Shown here: one piece after another, positions 13,753 to 54,123 of the stretch
Position numbering within the stretch: the stretch's first letter is position 1
Layout: the number at the start of each line of letters is the position of its first letter
Assembly: GCA_965230955.1 (NCBI GenBank)
Contig: OZ246404.1
Location: 988,291-1,052,290 of the forward strand
Reading direction: 5' to 3'
Length of the DNA: 64,000 nt
Source: an uncultured Candidatus Saccharibacteria bacterium
Lineage (GTDB): Bacteria; Patescibacteriota; CALEFQ01
Notes under the pieces: generated by a model
Databases searched by the model: none
The model's input: only the letters and a program-made list of their open reading frames with translations
Told to the model about the DNA's origin: nothing
Position numbers and translations under genes: made by a program

Positions 13753-13759
13753 GAAATTT

Positions 13760-13860
13760 TGTCTTTAGTCTTTGGTCTTTGGTCTTTAGTCGTTAGCCTC
13801 CGCAATTTTAACTGATGTTCTGGCGTCTAGCCAAAGACTAGAGACTAAAGACTAAAGACC
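13760..13860. repeat. (CAAAGAC)n inverted-repeat element
   Basis: GTCTTTAGTCTTTGGTCTTTGGTCTTTAGTC ... CTAGCCAAAGACTAGAGACTAAAGACTAAAGACC. Confidence 0.75.
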
Positions 13861-13934
13861 TCTATTTCCCTTCCCAAACTCCGTTTTTTATCTTATCATT
13901 AAGAAGCTAGGTTTTAAAGCATTTTCTGAATCTA

Positions 13935-17787: not shown

Positions 17788-17805
17788 TGATAATCCCCAA
17801 CCAAT

Positions 17806-17838
17806 AAGAGCGGCGGCCTTAAGACCGCCGCTCTTTTA
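17806..17838 (+). terminator. hairpin with GGCCTTAAGACC core (PAP2 terminator and IS-associated palindrome)
   Basis: AAGAGCGGCGGCCTTAAGACCGCCGCTCTTTTAT; same loop core as the hairpins at 17929 and 18390. Confidence 0.5.
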
Positions 17839-17839
17839 T

Positions 17840-17928
17840 CGATGACGTTTCCGTTGCCGTTCAATATAGTTCCGCACCCGATCGATATGTTTTTCGGAAA
17901 TAGAAAATGCTGAAACTAATCCAAAACC
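17840..17928 (-). repeat. solo partial copy of the IS right end (tnpA 3' fragment plus hairpin)
   Basis: rc translation ...VSAFSISEKHIDRVRNYIERQRKRHR* is homologous to the tnpA C-terminus ...FTVSESQVNKVKNYINRQKNHHKK; followed by hairpin 17806-17838. Confidence 0.5.
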
Positions 17929-18419
17929 CAAAACAGGGGTGGCCTTAAGACCACCCCTGTTTTTTGTGATGATTTTTTTGTCGATTAATATAGTTTTTTA
18001 CTTTATTCACCTGCGATTCTGAAACCGTGAAGGCACTATATCCTCGTTGCCAATATAAAGAACATTTGGGATATAAAATCTTAACTTGATATGAAGCGTA
18101 ACCTTTGATTGCACTGACCGCGGCAGTTACACTAATTACTGACGGTATTATAAGTAACAGGTGGATATGATCTTCGGTATTGTTACAAGCGATAACTACA
18201 ATGCCTAATTATTTGGCTTTTTCCTCAACCAGCTTTTTTATCCCTCTCTCAATTTCCAGGTTCATCAACGGGAGACGATATTTCACTGTCCATACCAAAT
18301 GGTAATATAGCCGACAAATAGATCTAGACATAAAAAACCTCCATTTGGAGGGTTTTTTGATTATGATAAAATTATGATTATTCGTCATTGTGAGATGCGG
18401 CCTTAAGGCCGCATCTCAC
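17929..18419 (-). mobile_element. IS200/IS605-like element (tnpA only) bounded by GGCCTTAAGRCC subterminal hairpins
   Basis: Hairpins at 17929-17964 and 18390-18419 flank tnpA; a terminator-like hairpin at 18333-18358 abuts the tnpA start, as in IS200. Confidence 0.5.
17945..18331 (-). pseudogene. tnpA: IS200/IS605-family Y1 (HuH) transposase TnpA interrupted by one in-frame TAA (18209-18211)
   Basis: Conceptual translation MSRSICRLYYHLVWTVKYRLPLMNLEIERGIKKLVEEKAK*LGIVVIACNNTEDHIHLLLIIPSVISVTAAVSAIKGYASYQVKILYPKCSLYWQRGYSAFTVSESQVNKVKNYINRQKNHHKKQGWS; family hallmarks YHxVWxxKYR, HIHLL, KGxSS and RGY. Confidence 0.65.
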
Positions 18420-30175: not shown

Positions 30176-30455
30176 ATATGCATTTTAACACGAACACCCG
30201 AATTGTAAAAAACATATCACACTTGATTAATTTCAGCTGGGGGTCTGGGGGGCATTCAGGAGCCATAATAGAAATTACCGAGTAAACTTCAATGATGGCG
30301 ACTTTATACCCCCGAGCCTTTTTGCCTGCCTGCCGGCAGGCAGGGTGACTTTTTGGTTACAAAAAGTAACTACGCCCTAGCGTAACTCTTATAAACTAAA
30401 GCAGCGAGGCTAAAAAGTCCTCACTGCTTAGAAATATCAGATACTAGCGATATTT

Positions 30456-35117: not shown

Positions 35118-35150
35118 CCTGTGACTACAGCCTCTCTCCTAAACCGTTTC

Positions 35151-35185
35151 CCCGCGATTGAAAATTATCAATCGCGGGTTTTTAT
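35151..35185 (+). terminator. intrinsic terminator
   Basis: CCCGCGATTGAAAATTATCAATCGCGGG followed by a T-run. Confidence 0.6.
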
Positions 35186-35189
35186 TTTT

Positions 35190-35330
35190 CAAGTAACAGG
35201 TATCAGGTAACAAGTATCAGGGAACAAGTAACAAAAAACAACCATTACTCTTAATTTTGCTCATATGTAATGGCTGTTATTCCAATTTGTTCCCTGTTAC
35301 CTGATACCTGTTACTTGTTAATTGATCACC
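35190..35330. repeat. (GTAACAR)n/(GTATCAG)n inverted-repeat element
   Basis: ~45-bp arms around a 50-bp spacer carrying its own CCATTAC/GTAATGG hairpin; lies between convergent gene ends. Confidence 0.8.
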
Positions 35331-46562: not shown

Positions 46563-46571
46563 AAATAAAAA

Positions 46572-46646
46572 TTAACAGGTAACAAGTAACAGGTAACAAA
46601 TTTGGAAGTATCCTTTTTGTTACCTGTTACCTGTTCCTTGTAACTT
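46572..46646. repeat. (GTAACAR)n inverted-repeat element
   Basis: In the divergent uppP / DHH-gene intergenic region. Confidence 0.8.
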
Positions 46647-46720
46647 ATTCTATCATATCTTTTCCCCATTGACACCATTTTTGCCATTGCGTATGATGAG
46701 GGGACGTTTAAATTTCCTCC

Positions 46721-51269: not shown

Positions 51270-51659
51270 ATGCCCGCTAAAACCGACCGGATCAGTAATC
51301 AAGTATTAAATGAATTCCAAAGCTCGGTTGATACTTATCTGGACACATTACAAGACCCTCCCACTAAACAAGAAGTGGAGACAGTCTGGAACGAGCTGCA
51401 ACGCCTGATCAAAGAGTTTCCGCCAGAAGAATTCGGCCCAGATGCTGAATACCTGGAGTACCTGAAAAAAAGCGCTAAAAGTCTTTTTCGTTTTCCCCGC
51501 GGCCGAAGTTCGGCGCCAGCTTTCTATCAGATGCTGGCGGGAATTCTGAAAAGCATTTCCTACAACAGCACGATGATCATGCCCCGGGAGGAAGCGGACG
51601 ACCTCCCTTTACTTTGCTATCTGGTGATGGCCTCTCGGCTCTGTGTGATATTGCTTTAA
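51270..51659 (+). CDS. hypothetical protein (129 aa)
   Basis: AAGGAGG RBS 7 nt upstream; own terminator at 51673-51704; no recognisable family. Confidence 0.4.
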   Translation: MPAKTDRISNQVLNEFQSSVDTYLDTLQDPPTKQEVETVWNELQRLIKEFPPEEFGPDAEYLEYLKKSAKSLFRFPRGRSSAPAFYQMLAGILKSISYNSTMIMPREEADDLPLLCYLVMASRLCVILL

Positions 51660-51776: not shown

Positions 51777-52814
51777 CTACACATGAAGCCCGGGCAAAGC
51801 TTCGAGATGTTTCCATTCCCATTTACTATTTTTATGCTTTCTTTGCATGAAATACGCCGCGGCGCCGATCATGGCCGCGTTATCGACGCAATATTCAAAT
51901 TTTGGCTGATAGTATTTTACCGACGGAAACCGCCGGCCGATGTCATTTTGTAATGTCTCCCGCAATAATCTATTGGCGGCGACGCCGCCGGCCAAAACAA
52001 ACGATTTGATTTTATACTGCGCGATCGCCCGTAAGCTCTTGGACACCAAAACATCGACGGCTGCTTGTTGAAAAGAAGCGCAGAGATCATTGACTTGCTT
52101 GGCGCTCAAATTTTTCTTCTTTTCCAAATCGCGCACCTGATAAATTACGGAAGTTTTCAATCCGGAAAAACTGAAATCGTAGCCGGGCCGATCGATTAAC
52201 GCTCTGGGAAAATTAAAAGCCTCGGCCTTTCCCGTCTCGGCTCGTCGCGAAACTATCGGCCCGCCGGGATAGCCAAGTTTTAATAAATTGGCAACCTTAT
52301 CAAACGCTTCCCCCGCCGCGTCATCCAAGGTGCCGCCCAAGCGAGTGAAATGCAAATGATCTTTCATTAGCAATAATTCCGAATGCCCGCCGGAAACCAC
52401 CAGCGCGATCAAGGGAAATTTTATCGTCTCGGCCGGCAGGCCCAGCCAGTTGGCGTAGATATGCCCGACAATGTGGTTGACCGGGATCAGAGGTTTTTTG
52501 AGCGCGAGACTGAGAGACTTGGCGGTAGTCACCCCCACCAGTAAGGCCGGTAACAAACCGGCGCCTTCGACCACAGCCAGCGAGTCGATTTTTGACCAAG
52601 GCATCCGCGCTTTCTCCCGCGCCGCTTCCACTACCGGAATAATCTTTTCGATATGCGCCCGCGCCGCCACTTCCGGCACCACTCCCCCATAACGAGAATG
52701 CAGATCGATTTGCGACGCCACCACATTGGACAAAACAATACCGCCGTCGCGCACGACGGCCACTGAAGTTTCGTCACAAGATGTTTCGATAGCCAAGATG
52801 TTCATCAGTAGCAT
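51777..52814 (-). CDS. tsaD: tRNA N6-adenosine threonylcarbamoyltransferase TsaD
   Basis: MNILAIETSCDETSVAVV N-terminus; Kae1/YgjD HxxGH region (IVGHIYANWL) and GGVAANxxLR C-terminal motif. Confidence 0.9.
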   Translation of the reverse strand: MLLMNILAIETSCDETSVAVVRDGGIVLSNVVASQIDLHSRYGGVVPEVAARAHIEKIIPVVEAAREKARMPWSKIDSLAVVEGAGLLPALLVGVTTAKSLSLALKKPLIPVNHIVGHIYANWLGLPAETIKFPLIALVVSGGHSELLLMKDHLHFTRLGGTLDDAAGEAFDKVANLLKLGYPGGPIVSRRAETGKAEAFNFPRALIDRPGYDFSFSGLKTSVIYQVRDLEKKKNLSAKQVNDLCASFQQAAVDVLVSKSLRAIAQYKIKSFVLAGGVAANRLLRETLQNDIGRRFPSVKYYQPKFEYCVDNAAMIGAAAYFMQRKHKNSKWEWKHLEALPGLHV

Positions 52815-52867
52815 TTTAAGCGTTGTAAATCTCTCTGTCCACTAATCTTAATAAACCCTCAAGATAA

Positions 52868-52895
52868 TTGACGGGGAAGAATTGTGTGATAAGAT
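52868..52895 (+). promoter_or_regulatory. sigma70-type promoter with extended -10 (TTGACG-16-TGaTAAGAT) for the intergenic small RNA
   Basis: Read directly from the sequence; no + strand CDS lies downstream. Confidence 0.35.
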
Positions 52896-52901
52896 GACTC
52901 T

Positions 52902-53146
52902 ATCATTGCTTGTTCTGGCCAAGCCAGCAGGAGATGTATCGGTGTGTACAACCGGTACATTGCTCAGATCACGGCTAACCTCCAACTGATCGGAATTTCT
53001 AGGAGTCACTATGTGGGTCAACGACTGCAGGGGTCGCACCCACTCAAAGACTAACTATGTCCAGCGTCCTGCCGCCGGATCAAATTACTCCTAGACAACT
53101 TTAAGCCCAATGCCAAACTTTAGACCGATCAGCTGGAGGTTTTTTC
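52902..53146 (+). ncRNA. candidate structured small RNA (unclassified)
   Basis: A ~17-bp long-range helix (52977-52993 with 53125-53142) encloses nested helices (52999-53006 with 53087-53094; 53013-18 with 53038-43) and ends in a U-run; promoter upstream; no ORF. Confidence 0.35.
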
Positions 53147-53151
53147 ATACC

Positions 53152-53186
53152 AAAAATGCCCGCGATTGGCTGGGCATTTTATTTTT
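53152..53186. terminator. bidirectional intrinsic terminator
   Basis: AAAATGCCCGCGATTGGCTGGGCATTTT flanked by A/T runs; terminates the minus-strand gene 53194..54123. Confidence 0.55.
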
Positions 53187-53193
53187 GGCGTTA

Positions 53194-54123
53194 CTATTTC
53201 TGAGAAACCATGGGCGTTTGCTTCGGAGGCGGTGTCGGCGACTGATTTTGGGCGCGCCTTTTTTTGACCACGAAGTAAATTTTCCCGCCCGCCGCGGCGA
53301 TCATCAAACTCAGACCAATATAGAAAAAAGTGGTGTGAAAAGCCGAAATTTCTCCGATATTTCTCTCGACCGTCTGGATCACGGCAACAATAAAGATGTC
53401 CATGAACAAATTCGCCCCCTCCGTCACAATGCTCGGTAAAAACTCGGTCACAAACTGATGAGCGATATTATATGAGGCAAAACCGGGGAAACTGGCTATG
53501 AGCAGAACCAATCCCGGACTGAACAATTTTCCCCAGCCGCAACTGAAATAAATCAACCCCAAGAGAACAACCAAAGAAACAGTCAAGCTGATACCGAACC
53601 AGGTTTGCATCTGCTGATGAGTCTCGTCGGAATAAATCTGAAAAGATTGAAGTCCCTCATCCAAATATTTGGTGTAATCAACTCCGCGCAACATGGTAAA
53701 AATGGCGCTGGTTCCCCCTTCATAAAAGGGAACGGCGATATCCTGCAGCATTTTAGTTTTCAGTTGTTCGGGCGAGGATGTCAGAATTTCGCTTTCCGGA
53801 AAAAAAGATTTTAAAATTTTGGCAATGGGCCGCTCTTCCGTCGGCTCGGCCGGAGATTCCTGCTCCGCTTTCGCGGCCAATTCATTTTTGTACTCGGCAA
53901 TCAGATTCTGAATATTCCCCTCGGCCTTGGAAAGAGATTTTTCGATGGCCACGGTAATAACTTCGACCGCCCGCTCGCGATCGGTCAATTGCATGACATT
54001 GTAAAGCGCCAGGGTGGATGAAAAAACCAGCACGAACAAAATGCCCACAACCCACTTGGCATCGATAAACCACAGCGGCCGATCTTTCCGGCCGGCTGAG
54101 AAATATTTCCAGAATTTGCTCAT
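53194..54123 (-). CDS. hypothetical membrane protein (309 aa)
   Basis: N-terminal TM helix, soluble coiled segment, ~5 C-terminal TM helices, Pro-rich tail; no recognisable family. Confidence 0.4.
   Translation of the reverse strand: MSKFWKYFSAGRKDRPLWFIDAKWVVGILFVLVFSSTLALYNVMQLTDRERAVEVITVAIEKSLSKAEGNIQNLIAEYKNELAAKAEQESPAEPTEERPIAKILKSFFPESEILTSSPEQLKTKMLQDIAVPFYEGGTSAIFTMLRGVDYTKYLDEGLQSFQIYSDETHQQMQTWFGISLTVSLVVLLGLIYFSCGWGKLFSPGLVLLIASFPGFASYNIAHQFVTEFLPSIVTEGANLFMDIFIVAVIQTVERNIGEISAFHTTFFYIGLSLMIAAAGGKIYFVVKKRRAQNQSPTPPPKQTPMVSQK

What the first reader, a model, noticed from the sequence alone, without database searches (positions are those of the whole stretch)
52902..53146. Promoter-to-terminator small RNA candidate with a long-range closing helix between two minus-strand genes
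No ORF is present. A sigma70-like promoter with extended -10 (TTGACG-16-TGaTAAGAT, 52868-52895) points into a ~245-nt region. In that region 52977-52993 (AACCUCCAACUGAUCGG) pairs almost perfectly with 53125-53142 (CCGAUCAGCUGGAGGUU) and is followed immediately by UUUUUU. The helix encloses nested helices CUAGGAGU/ACUCCUAG (52999-53006 with 53087-53094) and GUGGGU/ACCCAC (53013-18 with 53038-43). It is on the opposite strand from both flanking genes (tsaD and a membrane protein), so it is not a 5' leader. It does not show the conserved boxes of RNase P RNA, tmRNA, SRP RNA or common riboswitches as far as I can tell by eye. A 6S-like or novel sRNA is possible.
Basis: seen in the sequence. Interest (0 to 1): 0.55.

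Follow-up and report, generated by a model that had tools for sequence, protein, structure and literature searches.

The report
Orphan small RNA gene candidate beside tsaD
A roughly 250-base stretch between two genes of an uncultured, small-genome (CPR/Patescibacteria) bacterium looks like a stand-alone small non-coding RNA gene, but it was found in only one other species, its fold is only partly kept there, and its function is unknown, so it is a modest lead.

Summary
This includes the 17-nt long-range inverted repeat (52977-52993 / 53125-53141, one A·C mismatch), the two nested helices, the following U6, an extended -10 promoter pointing into the region, and no gene on that strand.

No Rfam family matches, even at E<=10. 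The organism is a CPR/Patescibacteria bacterium. Of all relatives I could reach, only one other species lineage (TsaD 76% identical; loci L162-167, L182-183) has a homologue. It sits at the same place and in the same orientation, with the promoter (TTTACT-16-TGaTATCAT) and the U-run conserved. Frameshifting indels rule out a shared ORF. Identity is 60%, against 44-45% at four-fold degenerate sites of the neighbouring genes.

The fold is only partly conserved. 25 of 31 core pairs are kept and there are 9 compensatory changes, against 0-2 in slid controls. But the homologous fold in the relative is about 16 kcal/mol worse than its own best fold, and that sequence folds no better than shuffles. 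Five other relatives lack the element.

Verdict: probably a real, lineage-restricted orphan sRNA gene on the + strand. It is not 6S-like. Function is unknown. Interest is low to moderate.

The parts
52868..52895 (+). Putative sRNA promoter. The -35 is TTGACG (52868-73), followed by a 16-nt spacer, TG at 52887-88, and the -10 TAAGAT (52890-95). The predicted start is near A52902.
   Evidence: The homologous site in L162 is TTTACT-16-TGaTATCAT in the same register.
52902..53147 (+). Predicted transcript of about 246 nt, the candidate sRNA.
   Evidence: Fold. The homologue in L162 was found by nhmmer at E=1.8e-12. The CM gives 208 bits for the window and 183 bits for L162. Identity is 60% against 44-45% at 4-fold sites.
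52909..52931 (+). 5' hairpin P1.
   Evidence: In L162, 6 of 9 pairs are kept, one of them compensatory. L162 forms a hairpin here in a slightly shifted register.
52933..52961 (+). 5' hairpin P2, an 11-bp stem. Its base includes the conserved AUUGCUC block.
   Evidence: In L162, 8 of 11 pairs are kept, 3 of them compensatory.
52977..52993 (+). 5' arm of the long-range closing helix P3 (AACCUCCAACUGAUCGG).
   Evidence: I1. Of 16 modelled pairs, L162 breaks 1; 1 is compensatory and 4 become G·U.
52998..53006 (+). 5' strand of P4 (UCUAGGAGU). It contains AGGAG 5 nt upstream of AUG 53011.
   Evidence: I11. In L162 there is a 3-nt deletion, 5 pairs are kept, and 2 are compensatory.
53013..53043 (+). 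P5 hairpin (GUGGGU...ACCCAC) with the conserved loop block YAACGAC. The inner CGACU/GGUCG extension is present only in the window sequence.
   Evidence: In L162, 5 of 6 P5 pairs are kept, one compensatory. The inner extension is broken in L162.
53059..53080 (+). Hairpin P6, seen in the window only.
   Evidence: It is mostly broken in L162 (helix 8).
53087..53095 (+). 3' strand of P4 (ACUCCUAGA).
   Evidence: I11.
53125..53147 (+). 3' arm of P3 (CCGAUCAGCUGGAGGUU) plus U6, the putative intrinsic terminator.
   Evidence: The U-run is conserved as U5 in L162 and U6 in L182/L183. The terminator scan does not call it because the loop is 131 nt.
53153..53180 (.). Bidirectional terminator hairpin (AAAAUGCCC...GGGCAUUUU) lying 14 nt after the stop of the - strand membrane-protein gene. 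It could also act as a back-up stop for the sRNA.
   Evidence: I12.
52813..52865 (-). tsaD promoter (TGGACA 52841-36, 17-nt spacer, TAAAAT 52818-13) within a block about 90% identical between the window and L162. It lies back to back with the sRNA promoter.

Best explanation
The region is a small, independently transcribed, non-coding RNA gene that is restricted to one sublineage of a CPR/Patescibacteria clade.

**Inferred transcription unit.** An extended -10 sigma-70-type promoter (52868-52895) lies back to back with the tsaD promoter and starts transcription near 52902. The roughly 246-nt RNA forms two 5' hairpins, then a domain closed by pairing of 52977-52993 with 53125-53141. That closing helix plus the U-run at 53142-53147 stops transcription. 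The bidirectional terminator at 53153-53180 may serve as a back-up.

**Inferred mode of action.** The RNA most likely acts in trans, as a regulatory or protein-binding sRNA. The conserved sequence blocks are GCUUGUU, AUUGCUCA, CAACUGAU, YAACGAC, UUAGA and AGCUG-AGGUUUUU. I think these blocks, more than the exact fold, are what selection maintains.

**What is shown.** The sequence features exist. The promoter, the U-run and collinear sequence are conserved in a second species. There is no conserved ORF.

**What is inferred.** Transcription, the strand, the 5' and 3' ends, and any trans-acting function.
For: - **Features present.**
- **Homologue.** It lies at the same position and orientation, divergent from tsaD, in a species with 76% TsaD identity (nhmmer E=1.8e-12; alignment). 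It is also present in two strain variants of that species.
- **Promoter.** It is conserved hexamer for hexamer with identical spacing and TG, and the scan finds it independently in L162.
- **U-run.** It is conserved, and lengthened by the only 3' substitution in L182.
- **Selection.** The region is 60% identical over 245 aligned nt with 7 gap columns (small indels of 1-3 nt), against 44-45% at 4-fold degenerate sites of tsaD and the TPR gene.
- **Not coding.** ORFs differ in frame and length between the species. An A-to-G change removes the shared AUG in L182. Pfam finds nothing.
- **Pairing.** 9 compensatory and 12 one-sided pair-preserving changes fall on the window-derived structure, against 0-2 compensatory in slid controls.
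- **Strand.** In the three best-kept helices, L162 has 6 G·U pairs that work only on the + strand, against 2 A·C. Only the + strand has a U-run after the helix.
- **Other origins excluded.** There is no pseudogene remnant and no phage or plasmid match.
Against: - There is no transcription data.
- Only two distinct sequences exist within reach, so covariation has little power, and the tested structure was derived from one of the two.
- In L162 the homologous fold evaluates to +2.9 kcal/mol. With those pairs enforced, the best fold is -12.2, against an unconstrained MFE of -28.1. The L162 sequences fold no better than shuffles (z=-0.7 and +0.09).
- The window's z-score is not exceptional for this genome's intergenic regions.
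- Other short intergenic regions are also alignable between these genomes.
- The element is absent from five related lineages at this locus, so it is dispensable there or has moved.
- A 131-nt 'loop' is atypical for an intrinsic terminator.
- No target complementarity to neighbouring genes was found.
Confidence: 0.5

Rival explanations
1. The element works at the DNA level, not as a stable RNA. On this view the conserved stretch is an enlarged regulatory and insulator region for tsaD. It would hold divergent promoter sequences, regulator binding sites and terminator-like repeats that shield tsaD from read-through out of the upstream membrane-protein gene. Any + strand transcript would be incidental.
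For: - The best-conserved part is the roughly 55-nt block around the tsaD promoter, about 90% identical (z=16.9), not the RNA body (z=7.7).
- Genomes with the element share a tsaD promoter spacer that differs from the spacer in genomes without it.
- The homologous RNA fold is not stable in L162.
- Other short intergenic control regions are similarly alignable.
Against: - Relatives manage with 111-134 nt between the upstream gene and tsaD.
- 250 nt of collinear conservation with only 1-3-nt indels is more than a promoter needs.
- A second, outward-facing promoter with a conserved extended -10 and a conserved U-run about 245 nt downstream is hard to explain without a transcript.
Confidence: 0.2
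2. The element is the remnant or cargo of a mobile or recombined cassette. About 340 nt, comprising the RNA plus the tsaD promoter variant, would have been inserted between the membrane-protein gene's terminator and tsaD. It would then either have been exchanged between two lineages or lost from the others. The inverted repeat would be a leftover of that element.
For: - Presence is patchy. The element is in the window (P0001) and L162 (P0004). It is absent from P0002/P0003, which are closer to the window by TsaD, and from the P0005 clade.
- The tsaD promoter variant travels with the element.
- Relatives show clean empty sites.
Against: - There is a single copy in the 64 kb window and in all fetched loci.
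- The inverted repeat is internal to the unit and not at its ends. I did not see target-site duplications by eye, but I did not search for them systematically.
- There is no transposase and no phage or plasmid similarity.
- The 60% identity between the two carriers is older than any recent transfer.
- This explanation does not exclude the cargo being a functional sRNA.
Confidence: 0.1
3. The functional RNA is on the - strand. It would be a structured spacer or 5' UTR between the membrane-protein gene and tsaD, for example a processing or attenuation element in a co-transcript.
For: - The - strand of the window folds slightly more stably (-91.6 kcal/mol, z=-3.9).
- The single mismatch in the closing helix is A·C on the + strand, which is a G·U pair on the - strand, in both species.
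- Both flanking genes are on the - strand.
Against: - A strong terminator follows the membrane-protein gene.
- tsaD has its own conserved promoter ending 7 nt before its ATG in all relatives.
- In L162 the upstream gene is different and convergent in orientation, yet the element is kept.
- L162's G·U pairs (6 against 2 in the kept helices) become mismatches on the - strand.
- The L162 - strand has z=-0.4.
- There is no U-run after the helix on the - strand.
Confidence: 0.07
4. The transcript encodes a very small protein. This would be a 27-aa ORF (53011-53094) preceded by AGGAG at 5-nt spacing, with a 30-aa ORF starting at the aligned AUG in L162.
For: - AGGAG, then 5 nt, then AUG in the window.
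- Both species have an ORF starting at the same aligned AUG, with similar first residues: MWVND in the window and MRIND in L162.
Against: - A 1-nt indel puts the two ORFs in different frames after about 8 codons. The peptides are otherwise unrelated and stop at different places.
- There is no SD-like sequence in L162.
- The AUG is GUG in L182/L183.
- Substitutions are not concentrated at third codon positions. They are explained by compensatory changes in helix P5.
Confidence: 0.04

Closest known systems
Orphan, lineage-specific bacterial sRNA genes with their own promoter and Rho-independent terminator (the generic class of trans-acting sRNAs found in intergenic regions)
   Same: It is an intergenic stand-alone unit with a sigma-70-type promoter, a helix followed by a U-run at the 3' end, a length within the usual 50-300 nt, no conserved ORF, conservation limited to close relatives, and no Rfam family.
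   Different: The terminator helix is long-range, with 131 nt enclosed, instead of a compact hairpin. No seed or target could be identified. The host is a CPR bacterium. From my own knowledge, and not tested here, the usual sRNA chaperones are often missing in CPR bacteria and very few sRNAs have been described there.
   Same: It has a similar size range, is non-coding, is a stand-alone gene, and is highly base-paired in the window species.
   Different: There is no match to the 6S covariance model even at E<=10. The 5' and 3' ends do not pair. The fold is branched rather than a rod with a central bubble. It is absent from close relatives, whereas 6S is normally a conserved housekeeping RNA (from my own knowledge, not tested here).
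Miniature inverted-repeat elements / REP-like intergenic repeats
   Same: It has a 17-nt inverted repeat, sits in an intergenic location, and is present or absent among related genomes.
   Different: It is single-copy. The repeat arms are internal to the conserved unit. It is kept at the orthologous site across 76% TsaD divergence, together with a conserved promoter and U-run.

Membership tests
6S RNA (RF00013) | Match to the family covariance model | tested here: not met
   cmscan at gathering threshold over the whole window finds only a tRNA. cmscan at E<=10 on 52780-53260 gives no 6S hit. The same holds for L162 at E<=5.
6S RNA (RF00013) | Rod-like fold: the 5' and 3' ends form a closing stem, with a large central bubble and a terminal stem | tested here: not met
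   The MFE and centroid folds show two 5' hairpins and then a branched domain. The transcript ends do not pair.
6S RNA (RF00013) | Binds the sigma-70 RNA polymerase holoenzyme and templates pRNA | not testable with these tools
   This needs biochemistry.
Stand-alone trans-acting sRNA gene | Own promoter, conserved in relatives | tested here: met
   TTGACG-16-TGaTAAGAT in the window and TTTACT-16-TGaTATCAT in L162 in the same register. This is a consensus match only, with no transcription start site data.
Stand-alone trans-acting sRNA gene | Intrinsic terminator at the 3' end | tested here: inconclusive
   A U6 run follows the 17-bp helix, and the U-run is conserved. However, the helix encloses 131 nt, is weak in L162, and is not called by the terminator scan.
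Stand-alone trans-acting sRNA gene | No conserved protein-coding frame | tested here: met
   Frameshifting indels, non-homologous ORFs, no Pfam match, and loss of the shared AUG in L182.
Stand-alone trans-acting sRNA gene | Detected transcript with defined ends | not testable with these tools
   No RNA-seq data were available.
Stand-alone trans-acting sRNA gene | Identifiable conserved seed and target | tested here: inconclusive
   Duplex energies against the 5' regions of tsaD, the TPR gene, the membrane-protein gene, the histidine-kinase (HK) gene and the 129-aa ORF are no better than for a shuffled sRNA (z from -2.1 to +1.3). Only neighbouring genes could be tested.
Structured ncRNA class supported by covariation | Helices maintained by compensatory substitutions across homologues | tested here: inconclusive
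   Of 68 pairs, 9 are compensatory and 12 are preserved with a one-sided change, 17 are broken and 4 are gapped. Slid controls give 0-2 compensatory. Only 2 distinct sequences were available. The homologous fold in L162 is about 16 kcal/mol above its MFE, with z=-0.7 and +0.09.
MITE / repeat element | Multiple copies per genome | tested here: not met
   There is no second copy in the 64 kb window or in the fetched loci, by pattern search, nhmmer or CM search. The rest of the 1.1-Mb genome was not available.
Riboswitch / 5' leader | A downstream gene on the same strand under its control | tested here: not met
   Both neighbours are on the opposite strand. The only + strand ORF downstream (53110-53439) is antisense to the membrane-protein gene, crosses two terminators, has no Pfam match and is not conserved.
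Retron msr-msd | Adjacent reverse-transcriptase gene | tested here: not met
   The neighbours are TsaD, a membrane protein, a histidine kinase and a TPR protein.

The most novel reading that the evidence does not exclude
The element is the founding member of a new class of structured non-coding RNA confined to a sublineage of CPR/Patescibacteria. It would have a multi-helix domain whose closing helix doubles as the terminator. It would work as a protein-binding or catalytic RNA coupled to the divergently transcribed t6A-synthesis gene tsaD, and not as an ordinary base-pairing sRNA.
Probability: 0.1. Interest if true: 0.55.

Novelty: new member of a known kind. Interest (0 to 1): 0.3.

Why it matters
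To my knowledge, almost nothing is known about regulatory RNAs in CPR/Patescibacteria; two full-text literature searches found nothing directly relevant. These bacteria have tiny genomes and few recognisable regulators. A verified stand-alone sRNA there would be a useful entry point.

The back-to-back arrangement with the apparently leaderless tsaD promoter is a concrete, testable regulatory unit. The element also appears to have arisen recently in one small clade, so it could show how new sRNA genes are born.

As it stands, it is a two-species candidate without expression data or a function. Its importance is therefore limited.

Tried and rejected
**Known RNA families.** Rfam gave nothing at gathering and at permissive thresholds, on both the window and L162. 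The weak SNORD75 and STnc350 hits are chance, or simply the terminator. ARAGORN found no tRNA or tmRNA here.

**Search for homologues.**
- TsaD-anchored scans of genome contigs and metagenome contigs returned 160 loci with at most 65% TsaD identity and no RNA homologue.
- The protein database gave closer relatives for TsaD and for the membrane protein.
They yielded only one other RNA-bearing lineage plus a strain variant about 1% diverged.
- A viral contigs pattern scan gave 0 hits. Phage and plasmid BLAST gave 0 hits.
- A covariance model of the closed domain found no paralogue or distant homologue.

**Alternative origins.**
- A pseudogene remnant of thymidine kinase or other neighbouring genes is rejected.
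- A conserved small ORF is rejected.
- Recent horizontal transfer of tsaD together with the RNA is rejected. The 5' part of tsaD is not unusually similar between the carriers, and the RNA is only 60% identical.

**Function.** Base-pairing of the sRNA to neighbouring mRNAs gave no signal.

**Sequence resemblances judged coincidental.**
- The anti-SD-like GAUCAC...CCUCC and the SD-like GGAGG in the closing helix are not conserved in L162.
- GGA motifs that might suggest CsrA-type binding: I counted about five by eye in the window sequence and made no formal test.
- A TIGR or CRISPR-like array is excluded: there are no tandem repeats, only a 17-nt, 76% direct repeat that is not conserved.

**Other.** Two literature searches found nothing directly relevant. 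The strain-level comparison of L162 with L182 has too few substitutions to measure constraint: 2 in 254 nt, the same as background.

Full report
**1. What is in the sequence**

The 309-aa protein has no Pfam family and 4-5 hydrophobic segments.

- A 17-nt inverted repeat at 52977-52993 / 53125-53141 has one mismatch and 131 nt between the arms. Nothing as good appeared in 400 shuffles of the gap.
- A perfect 9-nt nested repeat lies at 52998-53006 / 53087-53095, and GUGGGU/ACCCAC lies inside it.
- T6 follows directly at 53142-53147.
- The site TTGACG-16-TAAGAT, preceded by TG, is at 52868-52895 on the + strand.
- The + strand MFE of 52902-53152 is -84.6 kcal/mol (z=-4.4, 0 of 200 shuffles as good) and reproduces these helices. 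The closed domain alone gives -60.2 (z=-4.6).

Two cautions apply. The - strand folds about as well (-91.6, z=-3.9). And z-scores of -5 to -14 occur in several other intergenic regions of this window, so thermodynamic stability alone does not single this region out.

A bidirectional terminator at 53153-53180 serves the membrane-protein gene and lies just beyond the U-run.

**2. Known families**

- Rfam 15 gives only a tRNA-Glu in the whole window at gathering thresholds.
- Nothing relevant appears at E<=10 on 52780-53260 or at E<=5 on the homologous region of the relative.
- ARAGORN finds no tRNA or tmRNA here.
- 6S, SRP, RNase P, tmRNA, riboswitches and the large 'ornate' RNA classes are therefore not supported.

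**3. Organism and relatives**

The best genome-collection match for TsaD is 65% identical, to an uncultured 'Saccharibacteria' MAG. Most of the top hits are Patescibacteria/CPR. The exact TsaD occurs on a 1.14-Mb NCBI contig. The host is therefore a small-genome CPR bacterium.

The two large DNA collections held no close relative: 160 loci, with no RNA homologue by nhmmer or blastn. The protein database held closer ones. For TsaD these were P0002 (84%), P0003 (82%), P0005 (77%), P0004 (76%) and P0006 (73%). Four relatives of the membrane protein, at 75-78% identity, were also found.

Fetching their contigs showed the following.
- The element is present only in the window genome and in the P0004 lineage. 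Two further Logan assemblies of the window genome, L173 and L174, are identical.
- The P0004 lineage comprises L162-L167, which are identical to each other, and the strain variants L182/L183, which carry 2 substitutions.
- In both carriers the element sits immediately upstream of tsaD and divergent from it (nhmmer E=1.8e-12; CM 183 and 180 bits).
- Where the upstream region could be read, the P0002, P0003 and P0005 lineages and the more distant L001, L170 and L175-179 leave only 25-236 nt between tsaD and the preceding gene. None of these has a homologue.

The TsaD neighbour-joining tree is (P0005 clade, (P0004, (window, (P0002, P0003)))). The simplest history is therefore one gain and one loss or relocation.

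One observation complicates this. Carriers share a tsaD promoter spacer and upstream block that non-carriers, including P0002 and P0003, do not have. The element and the tsaD promoter variant thus behave as one cassette of about 340 nt. Recombination is a possible alternative to simple loss.

**4. What is conserved between the two carriers**

- **Promoter.** The window has TTGACG-16-TGaTAAGAT and L162 has TTTACT-16-TGaTATCAT, with no indel between the hexamers. The scan picks up the L162 site independently.
- **3' end.** The window has ...AGCUGGAGG-U6 and L162 has ...AGCUGAAGG-U5. In L182/L183 this is U6, through one of only two substitutions.
- **Body.** It is collinear over about 250 nt, with 7 gap columns (small indels of 1-3 nt) and 60% identity. 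Four-fold degenerate sites of tsaD and the TPR gene are 44-45% identical between the same genomes. This indicates moderate purifying selection, although the RNA alignment was optimised and the codon alignment was not. Other short intergenic control regions are also alignable between these genomes, so conservation alone is not extraordinary.
- **Coding potential.** The indels shift the frame. L162 has a 70-aa ORF where the window has none. The 27-aa and 30-aa ORFs that share an aligned AUG (53011) diverge in frame after about 8 codons. That AUG is GUG in L182. Pfam finds nothing. tblastn finds no remnant of the genes that occupy this position in relatives.

**5. Is the fold conserved?**

I scored the window's MFE structure on the pairwise alignment A3.
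- Of 68 pairs, 26 are unchanged, 12 are kept with one side changed, 9 are kept with both sides changed, 17 are broken and 4 are gapped.
- With the 3' partners slid by 1-3 columns, only 0-2 compensatory pairs appear.
- Closing helix P3: of 16 modelled pairs, 1 is broken, 1 is compensatory (C-G to U-A) and 4 change from G-C to G·U.
- P4: 5 pairs remain around a 3-nt deletion, 2 of them compensatory.
- P5: 5 of 6 pairs remain, 1 compensatory.
- The two 5' hairpins are partly kept. The inner extension of P5 and hairpin P6 are not kept.

The thermodynamics point the other way.
- L162's full region folds at -52 kcal/mol with z=-0.7.
- Its closed domain folds at -28.1 with z=+0.09, into a different structure.
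- The homologous P3-P5 fold evaluates to +2.9 kcal/mol. With those pairs enforced, the best fold is -12.2, about 16 kcal/mol worse than the free MFE.

With only two distinct sequences, and a test structure taken from one of them, I call structural conservation inconclusive. There is a real enrichment of pair-preserving changes, but no evidence that the relative actually adopts the same fold.

**6. Strand**

The following favour the + strand.
- The conserved promoter and U-run point that way.
- In helices P3-P5, L162 has 6 G·U pairs that would be mismatches on the - strand, against 2 A·C.
- The - strand of L162 has z=-0.4.
- tsaD has its own promoter ending 7 nt before its ATG in all relatives.
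- The upstream gene in L162 is unrelated and oppositely oriented.

The following favour the - strand.
- The one mismatch in P3 is A·C on the + strand in both species.
- The window's raw MFE is slightly lower on the - strand.

**7. Copy number and mobility**

No second copy exists in the window or in any fetched locus, by pattern search, nhmmer or CM search. There is no similarity to phages or plasmids and none in viral contigs.

**8. Function**

I found no complementarity of the RNA to the 5' regions of neighbouring genes beyond what a shuffled RNA gives. No seed can be named.

The conserved blocks are GCUUGUU, AUUGCUCA, CAACUGAU, YAACGAC, UUAGA and AGCUG-AGGUUUUU. Several lie in helices, and the two P3 blocks are complementary to each other.

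My best reading, at about 50% confidence, is a genuine lineage-restricted sRNA gene transcribed from 52902 to the U-run and acting in trans. The rivals are:
- a DNA-level regulatory or insulator region for tsaD (0.2);
- a recombined or mobile cassette remnant, which need not exclude a functional RNA (0.1);
- a - strand element (0.07);
- a tiny ORF (0.04).

**9. Verdict**

'Novel sRNA candidate' stands as the best reading. '6S-like' fails its membership tests. The long-range helix is prominent in this genome but only weakly kept in the single relative.

The element is a new, unclassified member of a familiar kind: an orphan bacterial sRNA gene. It has narrow distribution and no functional handle, so interest is low to moderate.

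Noticed in passing
window 35118-35317: A near-perfect long hairpin of about 128 nt sits between two convergent genes, one of which encodes a 2433-aa protein. It has a 31-bp outer stem built from short GUAACAGG/GUAUCAGG-type repeats and an inner 12-bp stem, and is followed by a strong GC-rich terminator hairpin. The MFE is -91 kcal/mol with z=-13.5. There is no Rfam hit.
   Followed up: partly
window 30176-30455: A 280-nt gap between two roughly 930-aa genes on the - strand holds several stable hairpins, including the palindrome GCCUGCCGGCAGGC. The z-score is about -5. There is no Rfam hit.
   Followed up: partly
window 13753-13934, 17788-18037, 46563-46720: Three further intergenic stretches have folding z-scores of -6 to -7 on one strand. 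I did not examine them. They show that strong predicted structure is common in this genome's intergenic regions.
   Followed up: no
window 52805-52841 (- strand); also L161, L169, L175: tsaD most likely starts at ATG 52805 (342 aa, as in P0001) and not at 52814. Its TGGACA-17-TAAAAT promoter ends only 7 nt before that ATG. The same geometry (TGGACA-17-TAAACT, then 7-8 nt, then ATG) occurs in relatives. This suggests a leaderless tsaD mRNA.
   Followed up: partly
window 52815-52865 vs L162 2940-2991: A block of about 55 nt covering the tsaD promoter and its upstream flank is about 90% identical between the two RNA-bearing species, far more than the RNA body. RNA-less relatives share a different promoter spacer (GYTGCCGGYTTTRMGTT), even though two of them are closer to the window by TsaD. 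This may be a shared regulator site, or a sign that the cassette was exchanged by recombination.
   Followed up: partly
L162 2072-2654: About 590 nt with no called gene lies between the RNA's terminator and a Na/Ca-exchanger gene, in the position where relatives (L175, L177) carry the histidine-kinase and membrane-protein genes. It has no similarity to the window and no relevant Rfam hit. It is probably a deletion or rearrangement scar.
   Followed up: partly
window 51270-51659 (+): A 129-aa ORF with no Pfam family lies on the opposite strand between tsaD and the TPR gene. It is called as a gene in the Logan assembly of the same genome. The gap is only 155-211 nt in L162 and L161 and 0-159 nt in the other relatives examined. 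It appears to be a lineage-specific insertion.
   Followed up: no
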